Shown here: piece by piece, positions 3 to 30,506 of the stretch | How positions within the stretch are numbered: position 1 is the stretch's first letter | How the letters are laid out: each line of letters begins with the position of its first letter | Source: a virus | Length of the DNA: 32,000 bases | IMG/VR virus record: IMGVR_UViG_3300014059_000004 | Reading direction: 5' to 3' (one strand) | Notes under the pieces: generated by a model | What the model saw: only the letters and a program-made list of their open reading frames with translations | Databases searched by the model: none | What the model was told of the DNA's origin: nothing | Translations under genes and position numbers: made by a program

Positions 3-335
3 ATGACTCTTAAAGATCTAAGACGTCTTATAAGAGAAACGTGGGGTGCGGCTGCATCTGGTGCTGACCCGAAAGATGCTGAGGGTTTTTATCCTTACGA
101 GATCGAGCGTGGTGCTGACATACACTCGTTCTGGTACAGATCGCCCGCACGAAGCATGGGTTCTGATGGCGACCCAGGACGCCCGGCAGACGCTGCTGAG
201 TACATCGGCATGAAACCTCCAGCACCAGAAGCCACTGGTGAAGAAGGTGGCGAGGCTGAGACTCCTGAAGGCGGCGAATCGCCGCCAGCTGAAACAACAA
301 CGAGCGAACCGGCTGATGACGAAAATTTGGCTTGA
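3..335 (+). CDS. hypothetical protein with N-terminal MTLKDLRRLIRE leader and acidic Pro/Glu/Thr-rich tail
   Basis: ATG at 3, 110-aa ORF ending TGA 333-335; same strand and spacing as neighbours; leader motif shared with ORFs at 3387, 19584, 20107. Confidence 0.5.
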   Translation: MTLKDLRRLIRETWGAAASGADPKDAEGFYPYEIERGADIHSFWYRSPARSMGSDGDPGRPADAAEYIGMKPPAPEATGEEGGEAETPEGGESPPAETTTSEPADDENLA

Positions 336-660
336 CGATCAGATCAACGATCCACACACTCCTGACCGTTGGGTACCCATGGGCTACGTGGGTGCTGCAA
401 CTGCCCGTGAGGCATGCCGCCTCCTCTCGCGCGGGGATGTTACCCACGTGGATTTTGATCACGATCTTGGTGATCGAACGTTGGGTTCTGGTTACACGGT
501 CGCCCGCTTCATCGAAAAGGGTGCTGCTTTGGGAACAGTGAAGCCCCTGACTTGGACGATCCATTCTGCAAACCCTGTCGGCCGCAGCAACATCGCAGCT
601 GCCATGGCTTCTGCAGAGAGGTTTTGGAGCAGATTAACACGTGGGCCTCAAGAAAAATAA
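316..660 (+). CDS. cyclic-phosphate-processing receiver-like (cREC / REC-fold) domain protein
   Basis: ATG 316 inside ORF 238..660, 20-nt overlap with upstream gene; motifs KIWLDD, DFDHDLG, GSGYTVARFIE, IHSANPVGR match my recollection of the phage cREC receiver family. Confidence 0.55.
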   Translation: MTKIWLDDQINDPHTPDRWVPMGYVGAATAREACRLLSRGDVTHVDFDHDLGDRTLGSGYTVARFIEKGAALGTVKPLTWTIHSANPVGRSNIAAAMASAERFWSRLTRGPQEK

Positions 661-5549: not shown

Positions 5550-5669
5550 TGTCCGGTAGCCAAGTGGTAAGGCAGGTGGCTGTGGAAGATGACATATCAA
5601 GTGTCTTGGTTCAAATCAAAATCTTCAAAAATAACCACCCTATCCTAGGTTCGAATCCTAGCTGGACAG
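5550..5669 (+). tRNA. tRNA gene with a 48-nt insertion in the anticodon loop (loop begins CTGTGGA = His GTG; Gln-like U1:A72 body)
   Basis: Acceptor TGTCCGG/CTGGACA, D arm GCC-AAGTGGTAA-GGC, perfect anticodon stem GGTGG (5575-5579) / CCACC (5635-5639) enclosing 55 nt, variable CTATC, T arm CTAGG-TTCGAAT-CCTAG; insert folds as GAAGAT/ATCTTC plus two inner hairpins. Confidence 0.5.
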
Positions 5670-5675
5670 CTTCAT

Positions 5676-5850: not shown

Positions 5851-5852
5851 CT

Positions 5853-6146: not shown

Positions 6147-6172
6147 CTGCTTCCACATGGAAGCGATACAAT

Positions 6173-16839: not shown

Positions 16840-17036
16840 TGATTCATTTTGTCAACGTTGTGTTTGCTATTCTTCTAACGCTCTTTCTGCTGTGGATGCT
16901 CATTTCTCCGTGGGCAATTACTGCTGTCACAATCGTGATGTTTGGTTGGGTTAGCACGCAGATAGTTCTGAGTGGCATTGATTCAGCAGAGGAACTTCTA
17001 AAGAAGTACAAGTTACTGATAGCTGCGGCTATTTAA
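16839..17036 (+). CDS. small membrane protein (2 TM)
   Basis: TAATG overlap with the upstream stop; MIHFVNVVFAILLTLFLLWMLISPWAITAVTIVMFGWV... Confidence 0.5.
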   Translation: MIHFVNVVFAILLTLFLLWMLISPWAITAVTIVMFGWVSTQIVLSGIDSAEELLKKYKLLIAAAI

Positions 17037-17043
17037 CGATAGC

Positions 17044-17301
17044 ATGCAGCTGTCTGTCGGCGACCTCGTCAAAGTTGTACCTCTCATCGGTACGCTTGAG
17101 CTCGTCAGATCATCAAACACGACGTCAAAGAACATCGACGACACGAAGACAGTGGGTCTCTTCAAGGAAACTGACGTCGGCGTCGTCGTTGCGGTTGCGT
17201 ACGCGGACTCAAGGCTAGCGCTCGTCCTCGTTCCGTCGGCAGTTGGATGGGCTTCTTGTGCCTTTTTGAAGCGAGTGTTAGGTAACCTACGCTTCATTTA
17301 G
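17044..17301 (+). CDS. hypothetical protein
   Basis: 85-aa ORF, ATG 17044. Confidence 0.45.
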   Translation: MQLSVGDLVKVVPLIGTLELVRSSNTTSKNIDDTKTVGLFKETDVGVVVAVAYADSRLALVLVPSAVGWASCAFLKRVLGNLRFI

Positions 17302-17342
17302 CAAAAATATTCTGTGGGCTGCTGGTGTTGTACCATGCAGTC

Positions 17343-17546
17343 ATGGAAAGCTGTCCAGCAACAGTTGGAGACCGCATCGTGGTGTGCGGTTACATAGAAT
17401 ACGATTGCAAAGTTTCAGCCACGACTTGGATTCCGGAAGAAGCACGCTGGAAGATAACTGTCGATTGGGGTGCGCTTGGCGAGTCGCACGTTTGGTCAAC
17501 TGATCGTGATAAGACGTGGTACCTCTTGAAGGTCGTCAATTTATGA
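17343..17546 (+). CDS. hypothetical protein
   Basis: First ATG (17343) in ORF 17325..17546 (GTG 17325 alternative). Confidence 0.45.
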   Translation: MESCPATVGDRIVVCGYIEYDCKVSATTWIPEEARWKITVDWGALGESHVWSTDRDKTWYLLKVVNL

Positions 17547-17776
17547 ACAAGTATGATTCATGGTCAACTGAATCGATCAAGGGATTCATCATCCTCATGA
17601 AAGAATCCATCGAACGCTGGAGCAACATCCCAGGTCCCGATGGTGGGAAAAATTCTACAGTGATAGCTTACGAGAAGAAGCTCAACCTAGCATGCGAAGC
17701 TCTTCTAAGGCGAGAATCTGCAGACGTTGAACCTCAGTGTGCCTACCCTGAGGAAACCTGGAAGTCTGGTAGCTAA
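17543..17776 (+). CDS. hypothetical protein
   Basis: ATG 17543 in ATGA overlap with the upstream stop, inside ORF 17516..17776. Confidence 0.5.
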   Translation: MNKYDSWSTESIKGFIILMKESIERWSNIPGPDGGKNSTVIAYEKKLNLACEALLRRESADVEPQCAYPEETWKSGS

Positions 17777-17784
17777 TTAAGATC

Positions 17785-18549
17785 ATGGAAGTTGAAAATC
17801 TACCCGTTCCAGAGCTACAGATCCCTGGTCAACAGTTCATCACTGACAACGTTAAGACTGACCGATTTACTAGGGATGCATCTGCAAGAGATCTGATCAT
17901 CGCTGGTAACGTACCTTCTCACATGAGGAGCTTCTGCCCAGTGACTACTGCGCTTCCTGACGGTCGATCGTTGACGTTGTACGTCTTGCCAGATTACTTG
18001 TGCATCGGCACTGATTCTGACTATGTCCGCGTTCCGATGCAGCCGCTCAACGCGCAAACAGTCGCAGATGCTCTCAATTGCATCCTTCCGACGACGAAGA
18101 TGGTTGATTTGATCTGGTCTGCTGCGGTGAACAAGTTGATGCCATTGCCTTGGGGCCCGCCTTACGATGCATCAATGATGAGCACGTCCAGAATTTCAGT
18201 TCATAACTCTAGGATTGCTGCTCAGCTTGCTAAGTCGAACTTGGACGCAACAGCATTGACAGCGGGTCACAAGAAAGATGTAGTGATCACAACGAAGCTT
18301 GTGAAGCAACCGAAGCAAGTTGCAATTTATGGGTGGACTCAGCTGAACGGAAAGCCTATCCAACCATTGTACCTTGGACATGAAATTTCTTACGCGGATT
18401 ATTCGCACGCAGTTAGACTTGTTTCAAAGTGTTGCGATATTGATGGCGTTGAAAGTGATTTGATAAAGGTGTTGTCTGATTCTGAACTATGTTCTTCAGT
18501 TTCGTCAGAAGGTCCTGTGCTTCAGCCACGCTACATTGAAGTTCCTTGA
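17785..18549 (+). CDS. conserved-looking hypothetical protein
   Basis: 254-aa ORF; a weak box TGGTAGCTA (17767-17775) lies 9 nt upstream of the ATG; I cannot name a family. Confidence 0.6.
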   Translation: MEVENLPVPELQIPGQQFITDNVKTDRFTRDASARDLIIAGNVPSHMRSFCPVTTALPDGRSLTLYVLPDYLCIGTDSDYVRVPMQPLNAQTVADALNCILPTTKMVDLIWSAAVNKLMPLPWGPPYDASMMSTSRISVHNSRIAAQLAKSNLDATALTAGHKKDVVITTKLVKQPKQVAIYGWTQLNGKPIQPLYLGHEISYADYSHAVRLVSKCCDIDGVESDLIKVLSDSELCSSVSSEGPVLQPRYIEVP

Positions 18550-18601
18550 TGAATTTATTTTTCCTAAGTGTGCATTAAAAGTGTACCTTGCTCTGAGACC
18601 A

Positions 18602-18610
18602 GGATATACT
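18602..18610 (+). promoter_or_regulatory. -10-like GGATATACT, 13 nt upstream of the first tRNA of island 2
   Basis: TATACT hexamer 18605-18610; lacks the TG of the extended -10. Confidence 0.25.
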
Positions 18611-18623
18611 ATTCATTATCAAC

Positions 18624-18697
18624 GGCCCCATCTTACTAGCGGCTTAGGTGGTCACCCTCTCAAGGTGAAGGCACGGGTTCAAATCCCGTTGGGGTCA
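18624..18697 (+). tRNA. tRNA-Glu: tRNA-Glu (CTC), weak D arm
   Basis: Acceptor GGCCCCA/TGGGGTC, perfect arm TCACC-CTCTCAA-GGTGA, T arm ACGGG-TTCAAAT-CCCGT; the 21-nt D region pairs poorly. Confidence 0.6.
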
Positions 18698-18894
18698 CAA
18701 AGATAATCACAAGAGAAACGAAAATGTCGAGCAAGCATCTAACATCACTAACTAGAGAAACGAGCGGCGGAAGCCTATCTCGCTCTATGTTCGTGAGCTT
18801 GCTTCCGTTTCTGCGCCCTACCAAGCCACGACCCTTAGGGGATGAATGTGGCAAGCCGGGGAGAAACGACCGGCAAAGGATAGAAGAAGAAAAT
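18698..18894 (+). ncRNA. structured non-tRNA spacer, possible small RNA
   Basis: 197 nt between two tRNAs with no T loop; three copies of GAGAAACGA (about 18714, 18756, 18861); long-range pairings AGCAAGC/GCTTGCT and AGAAACG..GGAAGC/GCTTCCGTTTCT; ORFs here look spurious. Confidence 0.35.
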
Positions 18895-18968
18895 CGGGCT
18901 GTCGCCTAGCGGCTATGGCGCCTGCTTTGGGTGCAGGATTTTCGGAGGTTCGAGTCCTCTCAGCCCGA
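18895..18968 (+). tRNA. tRNA-Pro: tRNA-Pro (TGG)
   Basis: Acceptor CGGGCTG/CAGCCCG, D arm GCC-TAGCGGCTAT-GGC, arm CCTGC-TTTGGGT-GCAGG, T arm GGAGG-TTCGAGT-CCTCT. Confidence 0.85.
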
Positions 18969-19014
18969 CTAACAGCAAGGAAACTTGCTCGTTGTTTGAC
19001 AATCTACGTTTCAC

Positions 19015-19108
19015 GAGTCTTTAGTGTAAAGGGCATACAAAGTGCTACAACTTCCACGTTGAGTGGGAAGGAGCATCTGACAGGGCGGTTCGATCCCGCT
19101 AGGACTCT
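19015..19108 (+). tRNA. tRNA gene with a 22-nt insertion 3' of the anticodon loop (loop CTACAAC, formal anticodon ACA)
   Basis: Acceptor GAGTCTT/AGGACTC, D arm GTGT-AAAGGGC-ATAC, stem AAGTG (19040-44) / CATCT (19074-78, one mismatch) enclosing 29 nt, variable GACAG, T arm GGCGG-TTCGATC-CCGCT; insert forms hairpin CTTCCAC-GTTGA-GTGG(G)AAG. Confidence 0.4.
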
Positions 19109-19114
19109 CTATAT

Positions 19115-19186
19115 CAGGAAGTACGTCAGCGGCAGACTCCCTCGTTCGGAACGAGGTGGCCGAGAGTTCGAGTCTCTCCTTCCTGA
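19115..19186 (+). tRNA. tRNA-Pro: tRNA-Pro (CGG)
   Basis: Acceptor CAGGAAG/CTTCCTG, arm CCTCG-TTCGGAA-CGAGG, T arm GAGAG-TTCGAGT-CTCTC. Confidence 0.8.
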
Positions 19187-19193
19187 CTGTTTG

Positions 19194-19313
19194 CATGCAG
19201 GTTAGTGTAACGGTAGCACAAGCCGGCACATCAGCCGGGAAGCAAGTGCAATTCTTGCGAATGATCAGCCTCACCAGGCGAGGAGGAGAGCGGTTCGATT
19301 CCGCGCTGCATGT
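19194..19313 (+). tRNA. 120-nt tRNA-like gene with about 47 extra nt (two hairpins) between the D arm and the anticodon-position arm
   Basis: Acceptor CATGCAG/CTGCATG, D arm GTGT-AACGGTA-GCAC, hairpins CCGGC-ACATCA-GCCGG and GCAAG-TGCAATT-CTTGC, then CCTC-ACCAGGC-GAGG at canonical distance from T arm AGCGG-TTCGATT-CCGCG. Confidence 0.35.
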
Positions 19314-19319
19314 AAATTT

Positions 19320-19391
19320 GCTGGAGATGCTCAATGGCAGGGCACCTGTTTCGTAATCAGGTAACTGTGGGTTCGAATCCCACCTTCAGCT
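19320..19391 (+). tRNA. tRNA-Thr: tRNA-Thr (CGT)
   Basis: Acceptor GCTGGAG/CTTCAGC, D arm GCTC-AATGGCA-GGGC, arm CCTGT-TTCGTAA-TCAGG, T arm GTGGG-TTCGAAT-CCCAC. Confidence 0.85.
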
Positions 19392-19395
19392 CAAT

Positions 19396-19502
19396 GGGTC
19401 TGATACCTCAGACTGGCAAAGGTCGGGTGGCGGGAGATGTGAAGTCTCAGTCCGCTGGCAATACCCAACTTATCGCGGGTTCGAATCCCGCCAGATCCAC
19501 CA
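19396..19502 (+). tRNA. tRNA-Ala: tRNA-Ala (GGC) with a 25-nt hairpin inserted 5' of the anticodon loop, CCA encoded
   Basis: Acceptor GGGTCTG/CAGATCC with G3:U70, perfect D arm ACCT-CAGACTGGCAA-AGGT, stem GGGTG (19425-29) / TACCC (19462-66), canonical loop CTGGCAA (19455-61) preceded by insert 19430-19454 (GCGG-GAGA-TGTGAAG-TCTC-AGT-CCG), T arm GCGGG-TTCGAAT-CCCGC, A-CCA. Confidence 0.55.
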
Positions 19503-19572
19503 GGAGATACGTTAGCGGCAAAACTCCGTGCTCTGGAAGCATGTGACGGGGGTTCGAGTCCCCCTCTCCTGA
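19501..19572 (+). tRNA. tRNA-Pro: tRNA-Pro (TGG) variant with C33
   Basis: Acceptor CAGGAGA/TCTCCTG, arm CGTGC-TCTGGAA-GCATG (loop position 33 is C), T arm GGGGG-TTCGAGT-CCCCC; starts inside the CCA of the preceding tRNA. Confidence 0.7.
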
Positions 19573-19583
19573 CTACTTACAAC

Positions 19584-20102
19584 ATGATTACAAACCTATC
19601 AAATCTTCGAAAGATGATTAGAGAATCTCTGGCAGAGAATAGTGCGTTTAATCTCAAAGTTGCAGATGTGTCTAACAACGACAAGCTGTATCATGCAACT
19701 TCTGAACTAAACGTTGATTCAATCATGAAGCAAGGTCTTGTTCCGAAGAACAATTGGGAAGAACAAACGCATGAACCTGCTGTATTTGTCATCAATGACA
19801 TGTACGGTGCACTTGACATGTATGAATGGATTGGTCACAAAAGACAAGCAGTTGTCTTTGAGATTGATGTGCAGAAATTGCTTTCATTGAACCCTAACAT
19901 TATTTTTTACAATGATGCTGATTCAGGTGATGGAGCATACTGGACTCCTTCAGTGATTCCACCTTCAGTTCTAACGCTAGTTGAGTTCGATGATTTATCC
20001 AGCCATGGTGTAGATGGTACGCACACTCGCCTGAAGAGCCTGGGGGTCCCGTTCGATTCGGGATGGCTGGACTGCATGTTTGAAGAAGAGACTGATACTT
20101 AG
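19584..20102 (+). CDS. H-type ART-fold protein (Tpt1/KptA- or DarT-like) with N-terminal NLRKMIRE leader
   Basis: KLYHATSELNVDSIMKQGLVP resembles the YH(G/x)T ... (S)I ... GL opening of Tpt1/KptA and DarT; the later AVVFEIDVQKL ... GAYWTPSVIPPSVL resembles the KptA C-terminus as I recall it. Confidence 0.45.
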   Translation: MITNLSNLRKMIRESLAENSAFNLKVADVSNNDKLYHATSELNVDSIMKQGLVPKNNWEEQTHEPAVFVINDMYGALDMYEWIGHKRQAVVFEIDVQKLLSLNPNIIFYNDADSGDGAYWTPSVIPPSVLTLVEFDDLSSHGVDGTHTRLKSLGVPFDSGWLDCMFEEETDT

Positions 20103-20106
20103 AAGC

Positions 20107-20607
20107 ATGGTAATGAAATTTTCCGCGCTTCGCAAGCTAGTTCGTCAGCTCGTAAGAGAAGGCGAAGGTTGGCCAACAGAATCGACTTCTGAACTTTACG
20201 GTGGAGGATCTGGCGTTGACGTTCGGAATCCACGAAATCCAAAGCCAAACACGCAAGGTGCAACTCGCCTTCCAAAGGGCCCAAACTCAAGAGATAATCT
20301 CGGTGAGGGTTACAAGCGTCCATCGCAAGCTGAACTGCAGCAATGGTCGCAAGGAAATTACGATGAGATCAATGAAGATGCATCGGCCATGACGCAAGAT
20401 CCTTGCGAGGGTTGCGGCGAGATGAAGCCTTCGAACGAGCTTGCTCAAGCAAAAGATGACGGTAGCGAGCGCGGTGGAAAGTATCTCTGCCAAGCATGCT
20501 CCGGTAACATGTTAAGAATCGCAGAGGTGCGCGAAAAAGTTAGCGGCCAGATTGCAACCCTGGTGTTACTCGGTGCGATACCGAGCCTCTGCTCTAGTTA
20601 CGAGTAA
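20107..20607 (+). CDS. hypothetical protein with N-terminal ALRKLVRQLVRE leader and C-terminal CxxC...CxxC
   Basis: ATG 20107 (or 20113) inside ORF 20080..20607; CEGCGEM ... CQACSGN zinc-ribbon-like pairs. Confidence 0.5.
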   Translation: MVMKFSALRKLVRQLVREGEGWPTESTSELYGGGSGVDVRNPRNPKPNTQGATRLPKGPNSRDNLGEGYKRPSQAELQQWSQGNYDEINEDASAMTQDPCEGCGEMKPSNELAQAKDDGSERGGKYLCQACSGNMLRIAEVREKVSGQIATLVLLGAIPSLCSSYE

Positions 20608-20615
20608 ACGTTCTC

Positions 20616-20629
20616 CGGGCTTCGGCTCG
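20616..20629 (+). terminator. UUCG-tetraloop hairpin after the stop codon
   Basis: CGGGC-TTCG-GCTCG, 9 nt after TAA 20605-20607; no T tract, so it may be a stabiliser or processing site rather than a terminator. Confidence 0.25.
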
Positions 20630-20692
20630 TGGTGTAAAGGCAGCGCGCTTTGCTGATGGCAGAGAGGTGAGGGTTCAAATCCCGAAGTTGAA
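20621..20692 (+). tRNA. possible tRNA-Ile (GAT), irregular D and T stems
   Basis: Acceptor TTCGGCT/AGTTGAA (2 G:U), arm CTTTG-CTGATGG-CAGAG, T arm GAGGG-TTCAAAT-CCCGA with tandem G:A pairs; 72 nt. Confidence 0.35.
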
Positions 20693-20701
20693 AGTAATGT
20701 T

Positions 20702-20774
20702 GCTAGCAGAGTAGGCGTGGGAATACGCATTCTTGGTACGAATGAGATGACGGGTCCGACTCCCGTTGCTAGCT
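20702..20774 (+). tRNA. tRNA-Thr: tRNA-Thr (GGT), T loop TCCGACT
   Basis: Perfect acceptor GCTAGCA/TGCTAGC, arm CATTC-TTGGTAC-GAATG, T arm ACGGG-TCCGACT-CCCGT. Confidence 0.8.
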
Positions 20775-20778
20775 CTAC

Positions 20779-20850
20779 GCGTGGGTAGCAGAGTGGTAAT
20801 GCGCAAGCTTGCCAAGGTTGAGATCATGAGTTCAATCCTCATCCCACGCT
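20779..20850 (+). tRNA. tRNA-Gly: tRNA-Gly (GCC)
   Basis: Perfect acceptor GCGTGGG/CCCACGC, arm CAAGC-TTGCCAA-GGTTG (30:40 G:G), T arm ATGAG-TTCAATC-CTCAT. Confidence 0.8.
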
Positions 20851-20869
20851 CTGGTTCAAAAGTAACTAA

Positions 20870-20941
20870 CTCGCTGTCGCTCTTGGAGAGCAGCTGGCCA
20901 CATACGCCGGAAAGAAGAGGGTTCGAATCCCGCTCAGCCGC
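20870..20941 (+). pseudogene. degenerate tRNA-like gene with CAT-type loop CACATAC (A33)
   Basis: D arm GCTC-TTGGA-GAGC, arm CTGGC-CACATAC-GCCGG, T arm GAGGG-TTCGAAT-CCCGC, but only about 4 acceptor base pairs can be drawn. Confidence 0.3.
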
Positions 20942-20960
20942 AAGTGAAATTGAGCTTTTT

Positions 20961-21034
20961 GCTGACGTCGCCTAATGGAATGGCACCTCACTTGTAATGA
21001 GACATAATTGTGGGTTCGACTCCCACCGCCAGCT
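20961..21034 (+). tRNA. tRNA-Thr: tRNA-Thr (TGT)
   Basis: Acceptor GCTGACG/CGCCAGC (one A:C mismatch), D arm GCC-TAATGGAAT-GGC, arm CCTCA-CTTGTAA-TGAGA, T arm GTGGG-TTCGACT-CCCAC. Confidence 0.75.
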
Positions 21035-21048
21035 CAAGCGTCAGATAT

Positions 21049-21136
21049 GGAAAGGTGGCCGAGTGGTCTAAGGCTGCAATTTTGAAAATTGCCGATCCTC
21101 GCAAGGGATCCGTGGGTTCGAATCCCACCCTTTCCT
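21049..21136 (+). tRNA. tRNA-Ser: tRNA-Ser (TGA), long variable arm
   Basis: Acceptor GGAAAGG/CCTTTCC, D arm GCC-GAGTGGTCTAA-GGC, arm GCAAT-TTTGAAA-ATTGC, variable arm CGATCCTCGCAAGGGATCC, T arm GTGGG-TTCGAAT-CCCAC. Confidence 0.9.
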
Positions 21137-21177
21137 CTAACAGTGTACTTAGTGCACCAGTAAGGTAAGATAAAAAC

Positions 21178-21351
21178 ATGGAAATCAAGAAGGTTCTCAA
21201 GTACGTTAGTTTGGCTGGTGCTGTTCTTGCTGCTGGTGCCGCTATCGGTGTTGCGGTGAAGTTGCTGAAGGAGAAGCTTCAAGAAGAAAAGCCGCAGAGC
21301 TTAATCTGCTACGCTAGCTATACTCGAATGGCTTCAGAGGGCGCACTGTGA
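21178..21351 (+). CDS. small membrane protein (57 aa); ORF runs into tRNA-His
   Basis: Hand-translated MEIKKVLKYVSLAGAVLAAGAAIGVAVKLLKEKLQEEKPQSL...; AAGGTAAG upstream; no in-frame stop before the tRNA at 21313. Confidence 0.35.
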   Translation: MEIKKVLKYVSLAGAVLAAGAAIGVAVKLLKEKLQEEKPQSLICYASYTRMASEGAL

Positions 21352-21386
21352 CTGCGCTTATGCGGGTTCGAATCCCGTTAGCTAGA
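21313..21386 (+). tRNA. tRNA-His: tRNA-His (GTG) with encoded G-1
   Basis: G-1 then acceptor CTAGCTA/TAGCTAG, arm GCGCA-CTGTGAC-TGCGC, T arm GCGGG-TTCGAAT-CCCGT, discriminator A. Confidence 0.85.
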
Positions 21387-21399
21387 CTCACGATAATTT

Positions 21400-21472
21400 G
21401 GCCTATCAGTTTCGCAGCTCGGAATATGCGACTTTCAATCGCAAGGAGTGGGGGCAGCACCCACATAGGCTA
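21400..21472 (+). tRNA. tRNA-Glu: tRNA-Glu (TTC) with non-canonical T loop
   Basis: Acceptor GGCCTAT/ATAGGCT, perfect arm TGCGA-CTTTCAA-TCGCA, T arm GTGGG-GGCAGCA-CCCAC (no TTC). Confidence 0.5.
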
Positions 21473-22156
21473 CTATGTTTTTACGGTGCGATTACCTATC
21501 ATTGAACACCGTCTAGAACAATATGAGTTTTTACAAGGATTTGGGCAAATTTTACACGTATTTGATTTACTAGTGGTGGGTCTTTCCTGATAAAGATCAG
21601 TGTAGGAATTTCCATACTTGTCTTTTACGTGTTTTATTATACCTTGAAGATCTTGTTTCCGAAAAACAAGCAAGTTAATGTGTGAACAATAAGCAAGTTT
21701 TGCTTGAAATTGTTTTGTATCATAACCCTTGATTTCAATGATGAATTCACCGATTTCAAAATCAGGTAGATAGGTGTGAATTTTACTTTCATAATAATAA
21801 GTGAAAGTTTTTTCACATCGCTTGATAGGAAGATTCATATCAATAGACCAAACTAGAAATGCTAGTTCCCAAGAACTACCACAATAAATTCCATTATACC
21901 AACCACACTTACTCCTACCAGAACCTTCACGATTACCTCCCAAATTTGTGTTCTTTGATGAACAAAAACGACTGCAATATTTTCGAATATATGAACCATT
22001 AACGCATGTGAACATTGTTTTACATGTAACCTCAATTCGAGGTGATCGAAGAATGTTTCTACGTTGCATTCGTCCGCTCAAGTTAGCTTCACAAACTTTG
22101 ATTGAATTACTAATCTTTTTCTTAGTTTCATCTGTTGAGATCGACGATGAGCGCAT
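21473..22156 (-). CDS. PD-(D/E)xK-type homing endonuclease, C-terminal frame (paralog of 4902..5546)
   Basis: SSWELAFLVWSID ... HTYLPDFEIGEFIIEIKGYDT matches GMWEVKFAIWLD ... YIPDFYL..YVEIKGWKT; STDETKKKISNSIK is NUMOD3-like; AT-rich; the zinc-ribbon N-terminus lies in another frame (22078..22230). Confidence 0.65.
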   Translation of the reverse strand: MRSSSISTDETKKKISNSIKVCEANLSGRMQRRNILRSPRIEVTCKTMFTCVNGSYIRKYCSRFCSSKNTNLGGNREGSGRSKCGWYNGIYCGSSWELAFLVWSIDMNLPIKRCEKTFTYYYESKIHTYLPDFEIGEFIIEIKGYDTKQFQAKLAYCSHINLLVFRKQDLQGIIKHVKDKYGNSYTDLYQERPTTSKSNTCKICPNPCKNSYCSRRCSMIGNRTVKT

Positions 22157-22230
22157 CGCTTTGAACAGAAACGTCCACTTCCATAAATGGTCGTATTTTT
22201 CTTGTTACATCTTTCGCACGTATACGACAT
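22078..22230 (-). pseudogene. frame-shifted N-terminal zinc-ribbon segment of the same endonuclease gene
   Basis: MSYTCERCNKKNTTIYGSGRFCSKRCAHRRS... from ATG 22230; a 1-nt frame change near 22150-22156 would join ...FCSKRCA to SSSISTDETKKK of the 21473..22156 frame. Confidence 0.5.
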
Positions 22231-22252
22231 GCATGTAAGTATTACATTAATC

Positions 22253-22302
22253 AGGATAGATTCAATCTTGCTACACGGGTTCGAGTCCCGTTGAGGTCGC
22301 CA
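22253..22302 (+). pseudogene. 5'-truncated tRNA-like remnant with loop AGATTCA
   Basis: AGGAT-AGATTCA-ATCTT, variable GCTAC, T arm ACGGG-TTCGAGT-CCCGT, TGAGGTC-G-CCA; no matching 5' acceptor strand, and that position is occupied by the start of the - strand endonuclease gene. Confidence 0.45.
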
Positions 22303-22303
22303 A

Positions 22304-22435
22304 ATGTGCATCAAAACAACCTGCGAAAAGTGCAACAAACCAACGTTTTCGGGCTGCGGAAAGCATGTAGAACTTGTGCTCCGTGATGTTCCGCCAGAGG
22401 AGCGTTGCAGGTGCAAAGAAGACAAGAAAGAATAG
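22304..22435 (+). CDS. small Cys-rich protein (43 aa)
   Basis: Hand-translated MCIKTTCEKCNKPTFSGCGKHVELVLRDVPPEERCRCKEDKKE; I recall a small conserved MC..TTC..C.K.T.SGCG.H... family; ATG is 1 nt after a CCA end. Confidence 0.5.
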   Translation: MCIKTTCEKCNKPTFSGCGKHVELVLRDVPPEERCRCKEDKKE

Positions 22436-22440
22436 ACCAC

Positions 22441-22522
22441 GTCGTCGTGGTGGAACTGGCATACACGCAAGCTTGAGGTGCTTGTGCCGAAAGGATTGAG
22501 GGTTCAACTCCCTCCGACGACA
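22441..22522 (+). tRNA. tRNA-Leu: tRNA-Leu (GAG), long variable arm
   Basis: Acceptor GTCGTCG/CGACGAC, D arm GTG-GAACTGGCATA-CAC, arm CAAGC-TTGAGGT-GCTTG, variable TGCCGAAAGGATT, T arm GAGGG-TTCAACT-CCCTC. Confidence 0.9.
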
Positions 22523-22526
22523 CAAT

Positions 22527-22600
22527 GTTACTGTGACGGAACTGGCATACGTTCTAGGCTCAGAACCTAGATTTTGTGGGTTCGACTCCCACCAGTAACA
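22527..22600 (+). tRNA. tRNA-Leu: tRNA-Leu (CAG) with only a 5-nt variable loop
   Basis: Acceptor GTTACTG/CAGTAAC, Leu-type D arm ACG-GAACTGGCATA-CGT, arm CTAGG-CTCAGAA-CCTAG, variable ATTTT, T arm GTGGG-TTCGACT-CCCAC. Confidence 0.8.
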
Positions 22601-22621
22601 CTAGCTTAATTTACGCTTTAT

Positions 22622-22706
22622 GCCCTTGTGCTTGGAACTGGGATACAGCTGCGTTTCAAAAACGCGGGCCCGAAAGGGATTGTGGGTTCGACTCCCACCA
22701 AGGGTA
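22622..22706 (+). tRNA. tRNA-Leu: tRNA-Leu (CAA), long variable arm
   Basis: Acceptor GCCCTTG/CAAGGGT, arm TGCGT-TTCAAAA-ACGCG, variable GGCCCGAAAGGGATT, T arm GTGGG-TTCGACT-CCCAC. Confidence 0.85.
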
Positions 22707-22718
22707 CTTTATTCATAC

Positions 22719-22792
22719 GTCCCTGTGATGGAACAGGATTACCATGCTAGTCTACGAAACTAGTCGTGCACGTTCGAATCGTGCCAGGGACG
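22719..22792 (+). tRNA. tRNA-Arg: tRNA-Arg (ACG)
   Basis: Acceptor GTCCCTG/CAGGGAC, arm CTAGT-CTACGAA-ACTAG, T arm GCACG-TTCGAAT-CGTGC. Confidence 0.9.
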
Positions 22793-22801
22793 CTCAACGT
22801 T

Positions 22802-22874
22802 GCTCTCGTAATTCAGCGGACAGAAATTCTCGCTTCGAACGAGAAAGTCGTGGGTTCGAATCCTACCGGGAGCG
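22802..22874 (+). tRNA. tRNA-Arg: tRNA-Arg (TCG)
   Basis: Acceptor GCTCTCG/CGGGAGC, arm TCTCG-CTTCGAA-CGAGA, T arm GTGGG-TTCGAAT-CCTAC. Confidence 0.9.
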
Positions 22875-22923
22875 CTGCGATTTAGATCATCTCGAAGTTC
22901 ATCGATGCGAATACCGTATTTGC

Positions 22924-23286
22924 ATGAAGTACTTCGTTGTGCTCTTTACAATTATGATCCTAGTTGGTTGTGGGTCAGACGCTAGCGATGATTCGCAGCT
23001 TGTGATTCATGAGCAAGTGAACCCCGAGCACCCAGTTTCAGGTTGGAGCTACGGAAGTAAAGATTACGATTCATGCTCATCACCTCGAATTCGAAGAGTC
23101 AGGCACGCAGAAGACGGAACGTCGATCAGCGTTCCAGAGCTTTGCAATCCTTACTGGCGCGATCGTGGTGATCCGATTGAGCGTCAGAATCCTGCGGAGG
23201 ATATCATCCGCATGCCCGAAGTAACAGTTCAGGGCAAATTAACTACACTTGGTCAAATGATGGAATGGCAGACATGTGAGTTTTAG
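22924..23286 (+). CDS. lipoprotein (lipobox LVGC); 3' end overlaps tRNA-Leu
   Basis: ATG 22924 in the frame of ORF 22744..23286 (the upstream part is tRNA sequence): MKYFVVLFTIMILVGCGSD...; the last 36 nt lie inside the tRNA at 23251. Confidence 0.55.
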   Translation: MKYFVVLFTIMILVGCGSDASDDSQLVIHEQVNPEHPVSGWSYGSKDYDSCSSPRIRRVRHAEDGTSISVPELCNPYWRDRGDPIERQNPAEDIIRMPEVTVQGKLTTLGQMMEWQTCEF

Positions 23287-24038: not shown

Positions 24039-24623
24039 ATGAAATTTTCAAAGAAAATCATCGGGCTAGCAGTTTGCTGCGCAGTTGCGCTTCTCTCGAA
24101 CACTGCTTCGGGTTCATTCGCAAAGAATCGTGATCCGCTGCAACGCGACAAGCAGCTAACGCCTCTATCAGACGTCCAGCTCGTCAGAGCTCTTCGAGAT
24201 TCTCACGTTGAGAACTTTGGGTTCGAGCCTTCGCCGGCGAAGCTTGCTATGGCTTGGGCTCAAGTGGCTCTAGAGAATGGCCAGGGAAAGTTCGTGTGGA
24301 ATCACAACCTTGGGAACATTGGCTCGCCGCCAGGGACTTCGCACGAATTCTACGTTCACTCATCGTACACTTCTTACAGATCGTTCGAAGGTTACCTTGA
24401 AGGCGGTGTAGCTTACTGGCGGACGGTGAGGCGCTGCGGATCGGCATGGGCCAACTTTGAAGTTGGAAATGCGACAGCGTCGGCTCTTTACCTCAAGAAC
24501 TGCGGTTACTACGGTGCTGACACAGATCAGTACGTTCGTGGAATGAATGAACTGTACGCTTACGCTCTAGGAAACGTGATTCCAAGAGAAGCTCGAGAGG
24601 CTACAAATGAGGGAAAAGATTGA
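24039..24623 (+). CDS. secreted peptidoglycan hydrolase, glucosaminidase (FlgJ/LytD-like) domain
   Basis: Signal peptide MKFSKKIIGLAVCCAVALLSNTASG; AMAWAQVALENGQGKFVWNHNLGNIG resembles the A.LESGWG ... NN.FGI glucosaminidase motif. Confidence 0.5.
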   Translation: MKFSKKIIGLAVCCAVALLSNTASGSFAKNRDPLQRDKQLTPLSDVQLVRALRDSHVENFGFEPSPAKLAMAWAQVALENGQGKFVWNHNLGNIGSPPGTSHEFYVHSSYTSYRSFEGYLEGGVAYWRTVRRCGSAWANFEVGNATASALYLKNCGYYGADTDQYVRGMNELYAYALGNVIPREAREATNEGKD

Positions 24624-29266: not shown

Positions 29267-29273
29267 TTTGTTC

Positions 29274-30506
29274 ATGGCACGTCCTCTTGTCGTAGAATTT
29301 TTGAAGAACCACTCGCTCCAGGAGCTGGAGCGAATGCACGGTGTTTGTGCACGAGCAAGCGCGGATGGTTCAAAGTATGGTCTCAACTATGACATGCTTT
29401 TGTCAAAGCCTGGTGATCAGCTCGCGGGCGAGTGTCGCGGGATGGTTATCCGACCGCTTGTTCGAATTTCTGCCGGCAGCGAAGCACCAGTTGGTGACGT
29501 AGAGGTCGTTGCGTGGCCAATGAGCAGGTTTTACAATCACGGTGATCCTAACGCTGCGACCGTTGATTGGTCTGACCCAAACCTTGACGTCTTCGAGAAG
29601 CTTGATGGCACGATGATAGTCATGTATTGGGATGCTGTTGCGCAAGTTTGGCATGCCGGAACTCGAAGTGTTCCAGAAGCTGACCTGCCGATCTGCAAAG
29701 AACACGTAGAGATCGGGAACAAGACGTTTTCCCAGCTGTTTTGGGATGCTATGAGGAGCATGTTCGAAGCCAATCGCTTCCTCGAAGCATCGAACTTCGA
29801 GGAATGGGTGAACTCTTCCTTCAACAAGGAAGTTACGTACGTCTTCGAGCTCACGAGCCCATACAACCGCGTCGTTGTCAAGTACGAAGATACGAAGGCA
29901 ACGCTTCTCGCGGCACGTCACACGGCATCCGGTGAAGAGATGCGGGTTCATGTTAGTTCCATCGGATTGCCTATCATTCCTCGAGCAAAGACGTGGAAGA
30001 TAAGCTCAGCTTCTGCACTCGAAGCGTTCGTCAACGCTGCAGATCCTACGACGATGGAAGGTGCAGTCGTTCTCGACAGCAAGTTCAATCGCTTGAAGAT
30101 GAAGAACATGGCGTGGGTGCTGTCATCTCGCGCTAAGGACCTCGTGACTGTCTCTAGGCGATCAGCATTGCTGGCAATCATCAAGGGAACGATCGACGAT
30201 ATCATCCCTCTTGTGTCAGAGGATATCAGCAAGGAACTCATGAAGATGCAAGAGCAGCTTGTTACGTTGTGTGCCAACATGGACGCAAAGTTTCAACAGT
30301 TCTTCATCGAAGCTGACAGTAATCGTCGACGTTTTGCAGAGCTAGTCCTTACGCAGGACGACTGCATCCCTGCACCGTTCTTCTCGATGTGGGAAGGTCG
30401 CGTTCCTTCGACGCTTGGTTGGTTCCGAAGCGTAGCGGAAGCAGGTAAGTTGTCCTCGCAGATGCTCGATAATACACTTAACCACATGGGGAAAACCACC
30501 TCTTAA
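29274..30506 (+). CDS. ATP-dependent RNA-ligase-like nucleotidyltransferase (KxDG)
   Basis: ATG 29274 in ORF 29268..30506; motif I FEKLDGTM, YVFELTSP (motif IIIa-like), EGAVVLD (IV), LKMKN (V); no recognisable DNA-ligase OB domain; a separate DNA ligase is at 12187. Confidence 0.55.
   Translation: MARPLVVEFLKNHSLQELERMHGVCARASADGSKYGLNYDMLLSKPGDQLAGECRGMVIRPLVRISAGSEAPVGDVEVVAWPMSRFYNHGDPNAATVDWSDPNLDVFEKLDGTMIVMYWDAVAQVWHAGTRSVPEADLPICKEHVEIGNKTFSQLFWDAMRSMFEANRFLEASNFEEWVNSSFNKEVTYVFELTSPYNRVVVKYEDTKATLLAARHTASGEEMRVHVSSIGLPIIPRAKTWKISSASALEAFVNAADPTTMEGAVVLDSKFNRLKMKNMAWVLSSRAKDLVTVSRRSALLAIIKGTIDDIIPLVSEDISKELMKMQEQLVTLCANMDAKFQQFFIEADSNRRRFAELVLTQDDCIPAPFFSMWEGRVPSTLGWFRSVAEAGKLSSQMLDNTLNHMGKTTS

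What the first reader, a model, noticed from the sequence alone, without database searches (positions are those of the whole stretch)
19015..19502. Insertion-bearing tRNA genes, island 2, including a textbook tRNA-Ala(GGC) split by a 25-nt hairpin
The gene at 19396-19502 has G3:U70, a perfect D arm, T arm and an encoded CCA. Its canonical loop CTGGCAA is closed by GGGTG/TACCC. However, 25 nt (19430-19454, two 4-bp helices separated by a 3-nt bulge, with a 7-nt loop) are wedged between the 5' stem strand and the loop. The gene at 19015-19108 carries 22 extra nt after the loop CTACAAC. The gene at 19194-19313 carries about 47 nt (two hairpins) after the D arm. Counting the two in island 1, five genes have inserts at four different positions. 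All inserts are self-folding, and all hosts retain intact acceptor, D and T arms. That argues against simple decay.
Basis: partly seen in the sequence, partly recalled or inferred. Interest (0 to 1): 0.8.

Follow-up and report, generated by a model that had tools for sequence, protein, structure and literature searches.

The report
Phage tRNA-like genes with hairpin inserts
Three genes in a huge phage's tRNA array keep the upper half of a tRNA, but structured hairpins have replaced or interrupted the anticodon arm; they are real and partly conserved, and whether the hairpins are cut out or kept is still open.

Summary
At 19015-19108 (g1), 19194-19313 (g2) and 19396-19502 (g3) there are tRNA-shaped genes with 7-bp acceptor stems, D arms and T arms. 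They alternate with canonical tRNAs at 3-6 nt spacing, and standard tRNA finders miss them. Comparison with relatives changes the picture.

- **g1** belongs to an old family found in at least five phage lineages. Its stems covary and its D arm is invariant, but the middle cassette is exchangeable. One relative has no insert. Two relatives have a hairpin at 31/32 followed by a canonical Arg-like loop. The window's version has no conserved anticodon.
- **g2** has two conserved extra hairpins.
- **g3** is a tRNA-Ala(GGC) look-alike with a 23-25-nt hairpin at 31/32. It is found only in close relatives and has decayed in one of them.
- **In island 1**, the phage's only tRNA-Asn gene carries a 48-nt three-way-junction insert inside the anticodon. 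The insert covaries across lineages, and intron-less orthologs exist.

An RNA repair gene set lies nearby: Rnl1, cREC, a KptA C-lobe-like protein and NADAR.

My best reading is non-decoding tRNA-like RNAs with remodelled anticodon arms (0.45). The rivals are enzymatic splicing (0.25) and decay (0.2). No experiment has settled this.

The parts
19015..19108 (+). g1: a 94-nt tRNA-like gene. Acceptor 19015-21/19101-07, D arm 19024-38, lower anticodon stem 19040-44/19074-78, T arm 19084-19100.
   Evidence: Coordinates checked. ARAGORN intron mode calls it. Orthologs are in L090, L091, L230, L001 and L008/L009, and L010 has an insert-free member.
19045..19073 (+). g1 middle cassette 'X' (29 nt). It contains the hairpin TTCCAC-GTTGA-GTGGGA at 19052-19068.
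   Evidence: T-to-C in L091 turns a G.U pair into G-C. L001 has CCTCC/GGAGG in its place. X differs at 8/29 positions from L230, against 2/65 in the rest of the gene. No anticodon is conserved.
19194..19313 (+). g2: a 120-nt tRNA-like gene. Acceptor 19194-19200/19306-12, D arm 19205-19, hairpin A 19223-38, hairpin B 19242-58, variable segment 19259-89, T arm 19290-19304.
   Evidence: Fold, pair counts, coordinates. Hairpin A changes CCGGC/GCCGG to CCAGC/GCTGG in L091. Hairpin B is invariant. The variable segment differs at 7/29 positions from L230.
19396..19502 (+). g3: a tRNA-Ala(GGC) look-alike with G3:U70 and A73, an 8-nt variable loop, and a CCA that overlaps the next tRNA.
   Evidence: Rfam matches only its ends, to the tmRNA model, at 35.5 bits (gathering score 47).
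19430..19454 (+). g3 insert: a 25-nt hairpin between positions 31 and 32.
   Evidence: The apical loop is TGTGAAG in the window, TGAAT in L090, TGTAG in L091 and TGAAG in L230, so relatives have 23 nt. The stems are unchanged. The adjacent T33 is C in relatives, which adds a G-C pair to the helix.
19115..19187 (+). Canonical tRNA-Pro(CGG) between g1 and g2.
   Evidence: All 5 differences from relatives lie in its anticodon arm.
19320..19392 (+). Canonical tRNA-Thr(CGU) between g2 and g3.
19501..19573 (+). Canonical tRNA-Pro(UGG) with C33. It overlaps the CCA of g3 by 2 nt.
19584..20102 (+). ORF for a small ADP-ribosyltransferase-fold protein resembling the C-terminal (NAD-binding) lobe of KptA/Tpt1. 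The reading frame runs on through tRNA-Phe (19999-20072).
   Evidence: Weak PHROG and NCBIfam hits. A family profile hits DarT1 and Tpt1 in the PDB. The AlphaFold model has pLDDT 86.6, and the top 18 Foldseek hits are KptA/Tpt1. A shorter homolog ends before the tRNA.
5550..5670 (+). Island-1 tRNA-Asn(GUU) gene with a 48-nt three-way-junction insert (5584-5631) between anticodon positions 35 and 36.
   Evidence: Alignment with intron-less Asn genes and with 57-nt-insert orthologs. Covariation in all three insert helices.
29268..30506 (+). T4 Rnl1-family RNA ligase.
   Evidence: Pfam RNA_lig_T4_1 at 2e-10. TIGR02308. PHROG 562.
238..660 (+). cREC (cyclic-phosphate processing receiver-like) domain protein.
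   Evidence: Pfam PF20274 at 1e-18. Its predicted role in phage RNA repair is described in PMC9503650.
24607..25077 (+). NADAR domain protein.
   Evidence: Pfam at 5e-27. NCBIfam.

Best explanation
g1, g2 and g3 are real genes derived from tRNAs. Each keeps the part of a tRNA that the end-trimming enzymes recognise: acceptor stem, T arm and D arm. Each sits 3-6 nt from canonical tRNAs on the same strand.

My inference is that they are transcribed with the array and cut out by RNase P and RNase Z like their neighbours. What has been rebuilt is the anticodon arm.
- In g1 and g3, a hairpin turns it into an irregular rod of about 13 bp.
- In g2, two extra hairpins and a fast-changing segment fill the middle.

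With these expansions in place the RNAs cannot read codons. I think the expanded form is the mature form. On this reading they are non-decoding tRNA-like RNAs whose upper half is held by selection, while the anticodon-arm cassette is free to change or be swapped. The upper half would be kept for processing of the array and for stability. It may also be kept for binding enzymes that act on tRNA anticodon arms.

The genes are not equivalent. g1 is an old family. g2 and g3 are young additions in this lineage, and g3 is dispensable.

**Shown:** gene anatomy, conservation, covariation and cassette turnover.
**Inferred:** transcription, end processing, retention of the inserts and any function.
For: **Anatomy and placement.** Canonical and odd genes alternate at tight spacing.

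**g1 family.**
- Members occur in the window lineage, L230, L001, L008/L009 and L010.
- The D arm GTGTAAnGGGCATACA and the segment GACAGGGCGG are invariant.
- The acceptor stem (GAGTCTT, GGACCCG, GGGCCCG) and the lower anticodon stem (AAGTG/CATCT, CGGTG/CACCC, GGACA/TGTCC) covary.
- No anticodon is conserved under any contiguous excision. Even 91-93% relatives differ: ACA against ATA, and AGG against ACT.
- The insert-free member L010 has a 6-nt loop, not a normal anticodon loop.

**Divergence is concentrated in the middle.** Window against L230:

| Segment | Differences |
|---|---|
| Spacers | 0/63 |
| g1 body | 2/65 |
| g1 cassette | 8/29 |
| g2 constant parts | 3/91 |
| g2 variable segment | 7/29 |

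**g2.** Hairpin A has a compensatory change and hairpin B is invariant. The putative anticodon stem is broken in L091 and L230.

**g3.** In relatives, U33 is C. This lengthens the insert helix at the cost of the most conserved anticodon-loop base.

**Standard models.** The tRNA model does not score g1 or g2 at all.
Against: **No function is demonstrated.** I could find no precedent for a decoy or punctuation role in phages.

**Some genes look like tRNAs waiting to be spliced.**
- In L230 and L001, the g1 cassette ends in a canonical loop (TTACGAG, TTACGGG) next to the 3' stem strand. g3 has the same architecture.
- The island-1 tRNA-Asn gene is the phage's only Asn gene. It keeps exact anticodon halves (CTGT...TAA) around a covarying insert.
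- C33 also occurs in two canonical tRNAs of this phage, so U33C in g3 relatives is not proof of lost decoding.

**Other limits.**
- The high local divergence could reflect recombination between alleles rather than selection. The upstream tRNA-Pro(UGG) also differs at 22/75 positions.
- g2 and g3 rest on four closely related sequences only.
Confidence: 0.45

Rival explanations
1. The inserts are short introns removed by proteins. An endonuclease, from host or phage and not identified, cuts on both sides of the hairpin. The phage's own repair enzymes then rejoin the anticodon loop to give working tRNAs. Those enzymes would be cREC to open a cyclic phosphate, the Rnl1-type ligase to seal, and the KptA-like protein to remove a 2'-phosphate. 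The products would be tRNA-Ala(GGC) from g3, an Arg(ACG)-like tRNA from type-A g1, and tRNA-Asn(GUU) from 5550-5670.
For: **g3.** Excising 25 nt restores a 5-bp stem and the loop CTGGCAA with the Ala identity pair G3:U70.

**g1 in L230 and L001.** The architecture is the same: a hairpin at 31/32 and then YUACGRG. It is kept between phages only about 59% identical in a flanking protein.

**tRNA-Asn.**
- Asn is the only amino acid without an uninterrupted tRNA among 39 genes in the window.
- The exons covary and the anticodon halves are exact in two divergent lineages.
- The insert is a three-way junction with compensatory changes in each helix.
- Intron-less orthologs exist.

**Enzymes in the window.** Rnl1, cREC, a KptA C-lobe-like protein and NADAR are all present. 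PMC9503650 describes these families as parts of phage tRNA-repair systems.
Against: - No splicing endonuclease was found, and there is no bulge-helix-bulge motif. In g3 both bulges lie on the same strand.
- No motif is shared at the junctions of the different inserts.
- The window's own g1 and g2 give no conserved anticodon after any excision.
- The spliced g3 would still have an 8-nt variable loop.
- g3 has been lost in L230.
- The repair genes are already explained by defence against host anticodon nucleases.
- The KptA-like protein lacks the N-terminal lobe that carries three of the four catalytic residues.
- My literature searches found no report of such introns in bacteriophages.
Confidence: 0.25
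2. They are tRNA pseudogenes. Insertions and deletions have disabled former tRNA genes in an array that is in constant turnover. What looks like conservation is mostly shared recent ancestry.
For: **g3 and g2.**
- g3 and g2 are found only in relatives at 88-99% identity.
- In L230, g3 has a broken D stem. A deletion between two T arms has fused it to the end of tRNA-Pro.

**Other debris in the window.**
- Orphan T arms at 20917, 22275, 23355 and 23919.
- A degenerate tRNA-Glu-like gene at 21400-21473.
- A tRNA with a 6-nt anticodon loop at 6074.

**Mobile elements.** Homing-endonuclease genes are dense here and move between relatives.

**g1.** The window's g1 has lost the canonical loop that L230 retains.
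Against: - The g1 body is conserved with multiple compensatory changes across lineages about 57-59% identical in a flanking protein.
- Changes between close relatives avoid the acceptor, D and T regions and the inter-gene spacers. Uniform drift would not do that.
- Changes in insert stems are compensatory or strengthen pairing, and length changes fall in loops.
Confidence: 0.2
3. The inserts are selected at the DNA level. They break the recognition sites of homing endonucleases that target conserved tRNA-gene sequence. This would protect the genome that carries them, as in collaborative homing of an endonuclease and an ORF-less intron. It explains origin and can be combined with any of the RNA-level fates above.
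For: - At least six endonuclease-like ORFs lie in 32 kb: HNH at 641-1060, 4224-4646 and 27823-28143; endonuclease-like at 4809-5546 and 21473-22156(-); NUMOD3 at 25693-26388.
- Relatives differ by extra endonuclease ORFs inside the arrays (L091; L100).
- The endonuclease-like ORF 4809-5546 and its L102 homolog sit directly upstream of the insert-bearing Asn gene. L105 also has an ORF directly upstream of its insert-bearing Asn gene, but I did not test whether it is a homolog.
- The lineages with the insert have one Asn gene, and those without it have two.
- The inserts are unrelated in sequence and sit at different positions.
Against: - No endonuclease gene is adjacent to g1, g2 or g3 in the window.
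- No target site is known.
- The idea does not explain covariation within the inserts unless the RNA also matters.
Confidence: 0.15
4. g3 is a miniature tmRNA-like molecule. It would be an alanine-accepting tRNA-like domain on a long irregular helix, acting on stalled ribosomes without a coding tag.
For: - Rfam's tmRNA model aligns both ends: GGGUCUGAU at the 5' end and CGCGGGUUCGAAUCCCGCCAGAUCCACCA at the 3' end.
- g3 has G3:U70, A73 and A8-U9.
- The middle forms a helix of about 13 bp with bulges.
Against: - The score is 35.5 bits against a gathering score of 47.
- At 107 nt there is no room for a tag reading frame or pseudoknots.
- g3 has a proper 4-bp D stem, which tmRNA lacks.
- The A8-U9 pair is also present in the neighbouring canonical tRNA-Thr.
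- An intact GGC anticodon loop points to a tRNA-Ala origin.
- No SmpB gene is in the window.
Confidence: 0.03

Closest known systems
Stable RNAs 'species 1' and 'species 2' (rnaC, rnaD) of the phage T4 tRNA gene cluster (from my own knowledge; not retrieved)
   Same: They are non-tRNA stable RNAs encoded among phage tRNA genes and co-processed with them. As I recall, they have tRNA-like features and no known function.
   Different: I could not test homology. The genes here keep a full acceptor, D and T set and are visibly derived from particular tRNAs: Ala(GGC) for g3, and an Arg(ACG)-like form for g1 in L230 and L001.
Archaeal and eukaryal pre-tRNAs with short protein-spliced introns, including non-canonical positions in Crenarchaeota (PMC4090602, PMC3241643; listed, cited from their abstracts only)
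   Same: Short inserts of 20-60 nt lie in or beside the anticodon loop and extend the anticodon arm. Several different positions are used. A ligase is needed after excision.
   Different: The host here is bacterial: the window encodes a sigma-70 factor and relatives encode RF-1. There is no bulge-helix-bulge motif and no EndA-type endonuclease was found. Splicing has not been shown.
Group I introns in bacterial tRNA genes
   Same: They interrupt the anticodon loop of bacterial-type tRNA genes.
   Different: Those introns are more than 200 nt long and self-splicing with a conserved core. The inserts here are 22-57 nt and match no Rfam family.
Phage tRNA repair systems: T4 Rnl1 with Pnkp, and KptA/2H/cREC/NADAR sets in jumbo phages (PMC9503650, PMC7824862)
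   Same: The window encodes Rnl1-family ligase, cREC, NADAR and a KptA C-lobe-like protein next to a large tRNA array.
   Different: Those systems are understood as repair of tRNAs cut by host nucleases. No link to insert-bearing tRNA genes has been described. The KptA-like protein here is only half of the enzyme.
Phage tRNAs that escape host anticodon nucleases by anticodon-loop changes (PMC10264068) and anticodon-arm-cutting nucleases such as P2 OLD (PMC12445682); both listed and cited from title and abstract only
   Same: Divergence between close relatives is concentrated in anticodon arms. All 5 differences in tRNA-Pro(CGG) fall there, and the g1 and g2 cassettes change fastest.
   Different: Those cases involve point changes in working tRNAs, not 20-50-nt structured insertions.
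Collaborative homing of a free-standing endonuclease and an ORF-less intron in cyanophage psbA (from my own knowledge)
   Same: An endonuclease-like ORF lies directly beside an interrupted gene, and the interruption would destroy a conserved target sequence.
   Different: The psbA element is a self-splicing group I intron. Here neither cutting nor splicing has been tested, and the pairing is seen for tRNA-Asn only.

Membership tests
Canonical tRNA (Rfam RF00005) | 7-bp acceptor stem, D arm and T arm with a T-loop of the TTCRANY type | tested here: met
   g1 and g3 meet it fully. g2 has a 7/7 acceptor, a 4-bp D stem after a 4-nt spacer, and a 4-bp T stem.
Canonical tRNA (Rfam RF00005) | 5-bp anticodon stem closing a 7-nt loop, and a model score at or above 29 bits | tested here: not met
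   g1 and g2 get no tRNA hit at E <= 10. For g3 the table lists only a sub-threshold tmRNA match; a tRNA match, if any, was lower-scoring and hidden by the clan filter. Default ARAGORN calls none of the three.
Bulge-helix-bulge (archaeal-type) tRNA intron | Two 3-nt bulges on opposite strands separated by a 4-bp helix at the exon-intron junctions | tested here: not met
   By inspection of the folds. g3 has both bulges (AGT and GGCAAT) on the 3' strand, 5 bp apart. g1 has an asymmetric internal loop. The Asn insert is a closed three-way junction.
Bulge-helix-bulge (archaeal-type) tRNA intron | An EndA/Sen-type splicing endonuclease in the genome | tested here: inconclusive
   No such domain appears in the roughly 45 window ORFs scanned. 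Only 32 kb of a much larger genome is in view, and the host is unknown.
Group I intron in a tRNA gene | A conserved catalytic core of at least about 200 nt | tested here: not met
   The inserts are 22-57 nt. There is no Rfam intron or ribozyme hit.
tmRNA | tRNA-Ala-like ends (G3:U70, ACCA) with a T arm | tested here: met
   The g3 ends align to RF00023.
tmRNA | Internal tag reading frame and pseudoknots, and a score at or above 47 bits | tested here: not met
   The gene is 107 nt in total and scores 35.5 bits. The 328 central model positions are replaced by 69 nt.
Dispersed hairpin repeat (MITE/REP-like) inserted in genes | Multiple related copies of the inserted sequence in the genome | tested here: not met
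   No second copy of any insert occurs in the 32-kb window at up to 3 mismatches per 18-mer. The single extra hit, at about 31525 for the Asn insert, I judged to be chance and did not examine.
g1 tRNA-like family (defined here) | D arm GTGTAAnGGGCATACA, segment GACAGGGCGG before the T loop, covarying acceptor and lower anticodon stems, and placement after tRNA-Pro(UGG) | tested here: met
   Window, L090, L091, L230, L001, L008/L009 and L010 all fit. The D-arm motif was in no tRNA among 120 bacterial-genome matches.
KptA/Tpt1 RNA 2'-phosphotransferase (for ORF 19584-20102) | C-terminal NAD-binding ADP-ribosyltransferase lobe | tested here: met
   The model has pLDDT 86.6. The top 18 Foldseek hits are KptA/Tpt1, with about 103 aligned residues and E down to 2e-7. 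The family profile hits Tpt1 and DarT1.
KptA/Tpt1 RNA 2'-phosphotransferase (for ORF 19584-20102) | N-terminal RNA-binding lobe carrying three of the four catalytic residues (per my knowledge of Tpt1), and a Pfam PF01885 score at or above gathering | tested here: not met
   Matches cover only the C-lobe part of the profiles (positions 73-121 of 182). The ORF itself gets no PF01885 hit at E <= 0.01, and its homologs score 20-22 bits against a cut-off of 26. The conserved protein is about 125-137 aa.
T4 species 1/2 stable RNAs | Sequence or structure homology to rnaC/rnaD | not tested
   I made no comparison with the T4 sequences. The resemblance is by genomic setting only.

The most novel reading that the evidence does not exclude
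A lineage of huge bacteriophages carries tRNA genes interrupted by short structured introns that are not group I and lie at unusual positions: 31/32 in Ala and Arg-like genes, and 35/36 inside the anticodon of the sole tRNA-Asn gene. An endonuclease would cut them out, and the phage's own heal-and-seal enzymes (cREC, Rnl1-type ligase, KptA-like protein) would rejoin the exons. That would be the first enzymatic tRNA splicing pathway in a bacterial system. It would also give a natural substrate for phage RNA ligase and bacterial-type KptA beyond damage repair.
Probability: 0.2. Interest if true: 0.9.

Novelty: new variant of a known kind. Interest (0 to 1): 0.6.

Why it matters
Phage tRNA arrays are usually read as lists of decoders. 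This one shows that a substantial fraction of an array can be tRNA-derived genes that standard tools miss and that cannot decode as encoded.

If the inserts stay in, these are a new class of phage tRNA-like RNAs built on a conserved processing scaffold with an exchangeable arm. They would be candidates for interplay with the many host nucleases now known to target tRNA anticodon arms.

If the inserts are removed, bacteria-infecting viruses would have protein-dependent tRNA splicing. That would give a long-sought physiological role to Rnl1/KptA-type enzymes outside repair.

Either way, there are concrete sequences to test. The tRNA-Asn case is the cleanest: it is the sole Asn gene, its insert covaries, and intron-less orthologs are available.

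Tried and rejected
**Close relatives in public phage collections.**
- Megablast of 17000-23000 against GenBank phages found nothing.
- IMG/VR pattern scans for g1 and for the Asn insert returned only the L001 contig, chance matches or unrelated tRNAs.

**Flanking ORF as a probe.** ORF 19584-20102 found nothing in IMG/VR.

**A cellular parent of g1.** Two bacterial-genome scans with its D-arm motif gave either no hit or 120 matches, none in a tRNA.

**A single anticodon for g1.** I tried every contiguous excision that leaves a 7-nt loop. No identity is shared by the window, L090, L091, L001 and L008 (reasoned).

**g2 as a tRNA.** I tried each of its three hairpins as the anticodon arm.
- Hairpin A has a 6-nt loop.
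- Hairpin B has G33 and U37.
- The third stem is broken in relatives.

**Known ribozymes or introns in the inserts.**
- There are no Rfam matches at E <= 10.
- By inspection, the Asn three-way junction has almost no unpaired junction bases, so it is not a hammerhead.

**The 245-aa ORF upstream of tRNA-Asn as a splicing endonuclease.** It gives only PHROG 'endonuclease' and resolvase-like hits, and nothing in Pfam, NCBIfam or the PDB. It is more likely a homing endonuclease.

**Nearest canonical tRNA to each odd gene.** Comparing D and T arms was uninformative.

**Literature.** Searches for short non-group-I introns or insert-bearing tRNAs in bacteriophages found nothing relevant.

**Formal pair counting on g2.** With three sequences it has no statistical power.
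Full report
**Setting.** The window is part of a huge-phage genome.
- It carries 39 ARAGORN tRNA genes, all on the + strand, in several islands.
- It encodes a sigma-70-type factor, an ATP-dependent DNA ligase and a T4 Rnl1-family RNA ligase. Relatives encode RF-1. The host is therefore bacterial.
- It has no near match among GenBank phages.
- Near-identical contigs exist in two public runs (99.8-99.99% identity), with no change in the focal genes.

- Default ARAGORN and Rfam at gathering score skip three gaps between canonical tRNAs.
- Each gap holds a gene with a perfect 7-bp acceptor stem, a D arm and a T arm.
It also calls g1.
- My scan for T arm plus 7/7 acceptor plus D stem gave about 250 hits on the array strand of 611 kb of related loci, and one on the other strand. 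These are not chance.

Some corrections are needed.
- The 'encoded CCA' of g3 shares its last two bases with the next tRNA-Pro.
- g3 would keep an 8-nt variable loop after excision.
- g2 has a 4-nt spacer before the D stem and a 4-bp T stem.
- The inserts' folding energies are not exceptional: z is -1.2 for the g3 insert, and -1.6 to -2.2 for the whole genes.
- g1 and g2 do not reach E <= 10 with the Rfam tRNA model. g3 is matched only at its ends, by the tmRNA model, below threshold.

**Relatives.** I collected three groups.
- About 100 syntenic loci, found through the ORF upstream of island 2.
- Four close lineages: L090 (93% protein identity in that ORF), L091 (91%), L230 (88% in the downstream ORF) and L100 for island 1.
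- Distant lineages at about 50-63% identity: L001/L101, L008, L010, L102, L105, L107 and L108.

**g1.** It is not a lineage-specific accident.
- Homologs sit after tRNA-Pro(UGG) in L001, L008/L009 and L010.
- Across them the D arm (GTGTAAnGGGCATACA) and the segment GACAGGGCGG are invariant.
- The acceptor and lower anticodon stems change by compensated pairs. There are four doubly compensated acceptor pairs between the window and L001.

The middle is a cassette.
- L010 has none, only a 6-nt loop.
- L230 and L001 share one type, 74% identical by my count. It has an 8-nt linker and a 5-bp hairpin with compensatory changes. It then has the canonical-looking loop TTACGAG or TTACGGG directly before the 3' stem strand.
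- The window, L090 and L091 carry another type. Its 5' half resembles that of L008, and it has no canonical loop.
- No contiguous excision gives one identity for all members.
- The L001 phage also has an ordinary tRNA-Arg(ACG).

**g2.** It is known only from the four close lineages.
- The acceptor, D arm, hairpin A (one compensatory pair), hairpin B (invariant) and T arm hold.
- The stem that would have to be the anticodon arm breaks in L091 and L230. Its surroundings are the fastest-changing part of the gene.
- The D arm resembles those of tRNA-Gln and tRNA-Gly in other loci, so a tRNA origin is likely. I could not assign an anticodon.

**g3.** It is also known only from close lineages.
- The two insert helices are unchanged. 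The apical loop changes in sequence and length, from 7 nt to 5 nt.
- T33 is C in all relatives, which adds a G-C pair to the insert helix.
- C33 also occurs in two canonical tRNAs of this phage, so this change is not decisive.
- In L230, g3 has a broken D stem. A deletion between its T arm and that of the next tRNA-Pro has removed its 3' half. g3 is therefore dispensable there.

**Pattern of change.** Differences from the window in L230 are as follows.

| Segment | Differences |
|---|---|
| Spacers | 0/63 |
| g1 body | 2/65 |
| g1 cassette | 8/29 |
| g2 constant parts | 3/91 |
| g2 variable segment | 7/29 |
| tRNA-Pro(CGG) | 5/73, all in the anticodon arm |
| Upstream tRNA-Pro(UGG) | 22/75 |

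Anticodon arms and cassettes are where this array changes, by selection, by allele exchange, or by both.

**Island 1 matters for the interpretation.** The gene at 5550-5670, which ARAGORN calls His, is tRNA-Asn.
- It has U1-A72 and G73.
- Its orthologs in L101, L107 and L108 are uninterrupted tRNA-Asn(GUU) genes with the loop CTGTTAA.
- The window has CTGT, then 48 nt, then TAA.
- L102 and L105 carry a homologous 57-nt insert at the same place.
- RNAalifold finds a three-way junction with compensatory pairs in all three insert helices and in the exon stems. One insert loop keeps an invariant GUUCAAA.
- Asn is the only amino acid without an uninterrupted tRNA gene in the window.
- Lineages with the insert have one Asn gene. 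Those without it have two.
- In the window and L102, homologous endonuclease-like ORFs lie directly upstream. L105 also has an ORF there, which I did not compare.

This is the strongest hint that some inserts are removed. It is still only a hint.

**Protein context.**
- The ORF after island 2 (19584-20102) belongs to a family whose profile hits DarT1 and Tpt1/KptA.
- A confident model (pLDDT 86.6) matches the KptA/Tpt1 C-terminal lobe in its top 18 Foldseek hits.
- The N-terminal lobe is absent, and Pfam scores in homologs stay below threshold.
- The reading frame runs through tRNA-Phe. A shorter homolog stops before it.
- The window also encodes cREC, NADAR, peptidyl-tRNA hydrolase PTH2 and the Rnl1-type ligase.

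PMC9503650 describes KptA, cREC, NADAR and T4-like ligases as components of phage RNA repair against host nucleases. This toolkit could seal a spliced anticodon loop, but repair alone already explains its presence.

**What it is not.**
- The inserts match no Rfam family.
- They are too small for group I introns.
- They lack a bulge-helix-bulge motif.
- They are not copies of a dispersed repeat.
- g3 is not a tmRNA.
- Literature searches found no description of such genes in bacteriophages.

**Verdict.** These are real, tRNA-derived genes with expanded anticodon arms.
- For the island-2 set as it stands in this window, I favour mature non-decoding tRNA-like RNAs (0.45). Their tRNA upper half is kept for processing and stability, and their arm is an exchangeable cassette.
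- Enzymatic splicing (0.25) is a serious rival for g3, for the type-A g1 of L230 and L001, and above all for tRNA-Asn.
- Decay (0.2) is plausible for g3 and cannot be excluded for g2.
- A DNA-level role of the inserts as protection from homing endonucleases may explain their origin.
- RNA sequencing would settle which fate applies.

Noticed in passing
window 5550-5670 (insert 5584-5631): The phage's only tRNA-Asn(GUU) gene is split inside the anticodon (35/36) by a 48-nt three-way junction. The insert covaries with 57-nt homologs in L102 and L105. L101, L107 and L108 have intron-less orthologs. ARAGORN mislabels the gene as His.
   Followed up: yes
window 5759-5851: tRNA-Ile(UAU) with a variable arm of about 20 nt (93 nt in total). 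The Asn genes of L101 and L102 also have 15-17-nt variable arms, so arm expansions seem common in these phages.
   Followed up: partly
window 6074-6147: tRNA-like gene with a 6-nt anticodon loop, TTGCAA. ARAGORN reports anticodon 'gc'; Rfam tRNA scores it at 44 bits.
   Followed up: no
window 6502-6586: An 85-nt element with a perfect 7-bp acceptor stem and a T arm (AACGG-TTCGATT-CCGTT), but no recognisable D or anticodon arm. A similar T arm lies in an acceptor-less element at L001 7557-7610.
   Followed up: partly
window 21400-21473: Degenerate tRNA-Glu(UUC)-like gene. The acceptor and the anticodon arm (TGCGA-CTTTCAA-TCGCA) are intact, but the T loop is GCAGCA and the D arm is aberrant. Both tools miss it. 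Relatives have a normal tRNA-Glu(UUC) after tRNA-His.
   Followed up: partly
window 20917, 22275, 23355, 23919: Four orphan T arms, each with a 3' acceptor-like strand but no matching 5' strand. The one at 22275 is followed by GCCA. The T arm at 23355 has an identical copy at L001 7403.
   Followed up: partly
window 19584-20102: A stand-alone protein like the C-terminal lobe of KptA/Tpt1 (ADP-ribosyltransferase fold). Its reading frame continues through the tRNA-Phe gene at 19999-20072. About 55 relatives exist, many as C-terminal domains of 230-260-aa proteins.
   Followed up: yes
window 238-660, 24607-25077, 26357-26887, 29268-30506: cREC, NADAR, peptidyl-tRNA hydrolase PTH2 and an Rnl1-type ligase together form a tRNA repair and quality-control gene set spread through the tRNA islands.
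   Followed up: partly
window 641-1060, 4224-4646, 4809-5546, 21473-22156(-), 25693-26388, 27823-28143; L091 1760-2482(-); L100 3045-3488: A high density of homing-endonuclease-like genes (HNH, NUMOD3/GIY-YIG, other endonuclease-like) lies inside the tRNA arrays. Close relatives differ in which ones are present.
   Followed up: partly
window 19501-19573 and 26772-26845: Two otherwise canonical tRNAs, Pro(UGG) and Val(UAC), have C instead of the near-universal U at position 33. L003's tRNA-Val(UAC) also has C33.
   Followed up: no
window 19115-19187: All five differences between this tRNA-Pro(CGG) and its copies in L090, L091 and L230 lie in the anticodon arm: two compensated stem pairs and position 32. 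The flanking spacers are identical.
   Followed up: partly
window 18699-18894: A gap of about 195 nt between tRNA-Glu(CUC) and tRNA-Pro(UGG) recurs at the same place in distant relatives (L001, L003, L005, L006, L095, L098). It could hold another structured RNA.
   Followed up: no
L230 500-600: A deletion between the T arm of g3 and the T arm of the next tRNA-Pro(UGG) created a chimeric remnant. It shows T-arm-to-T-arm recombination reshaping the array.
   Followed up: yes
L095 8363-8780, L098 8232-8744: Relatives encode a release-factor-like protein (PCRF/RF-1 domains) at the end of the tRNA array. L006 and L101 have tRNAs with anticodon UUA (stop-reading). Recoding may occur in this phage group.
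   Followed up: no
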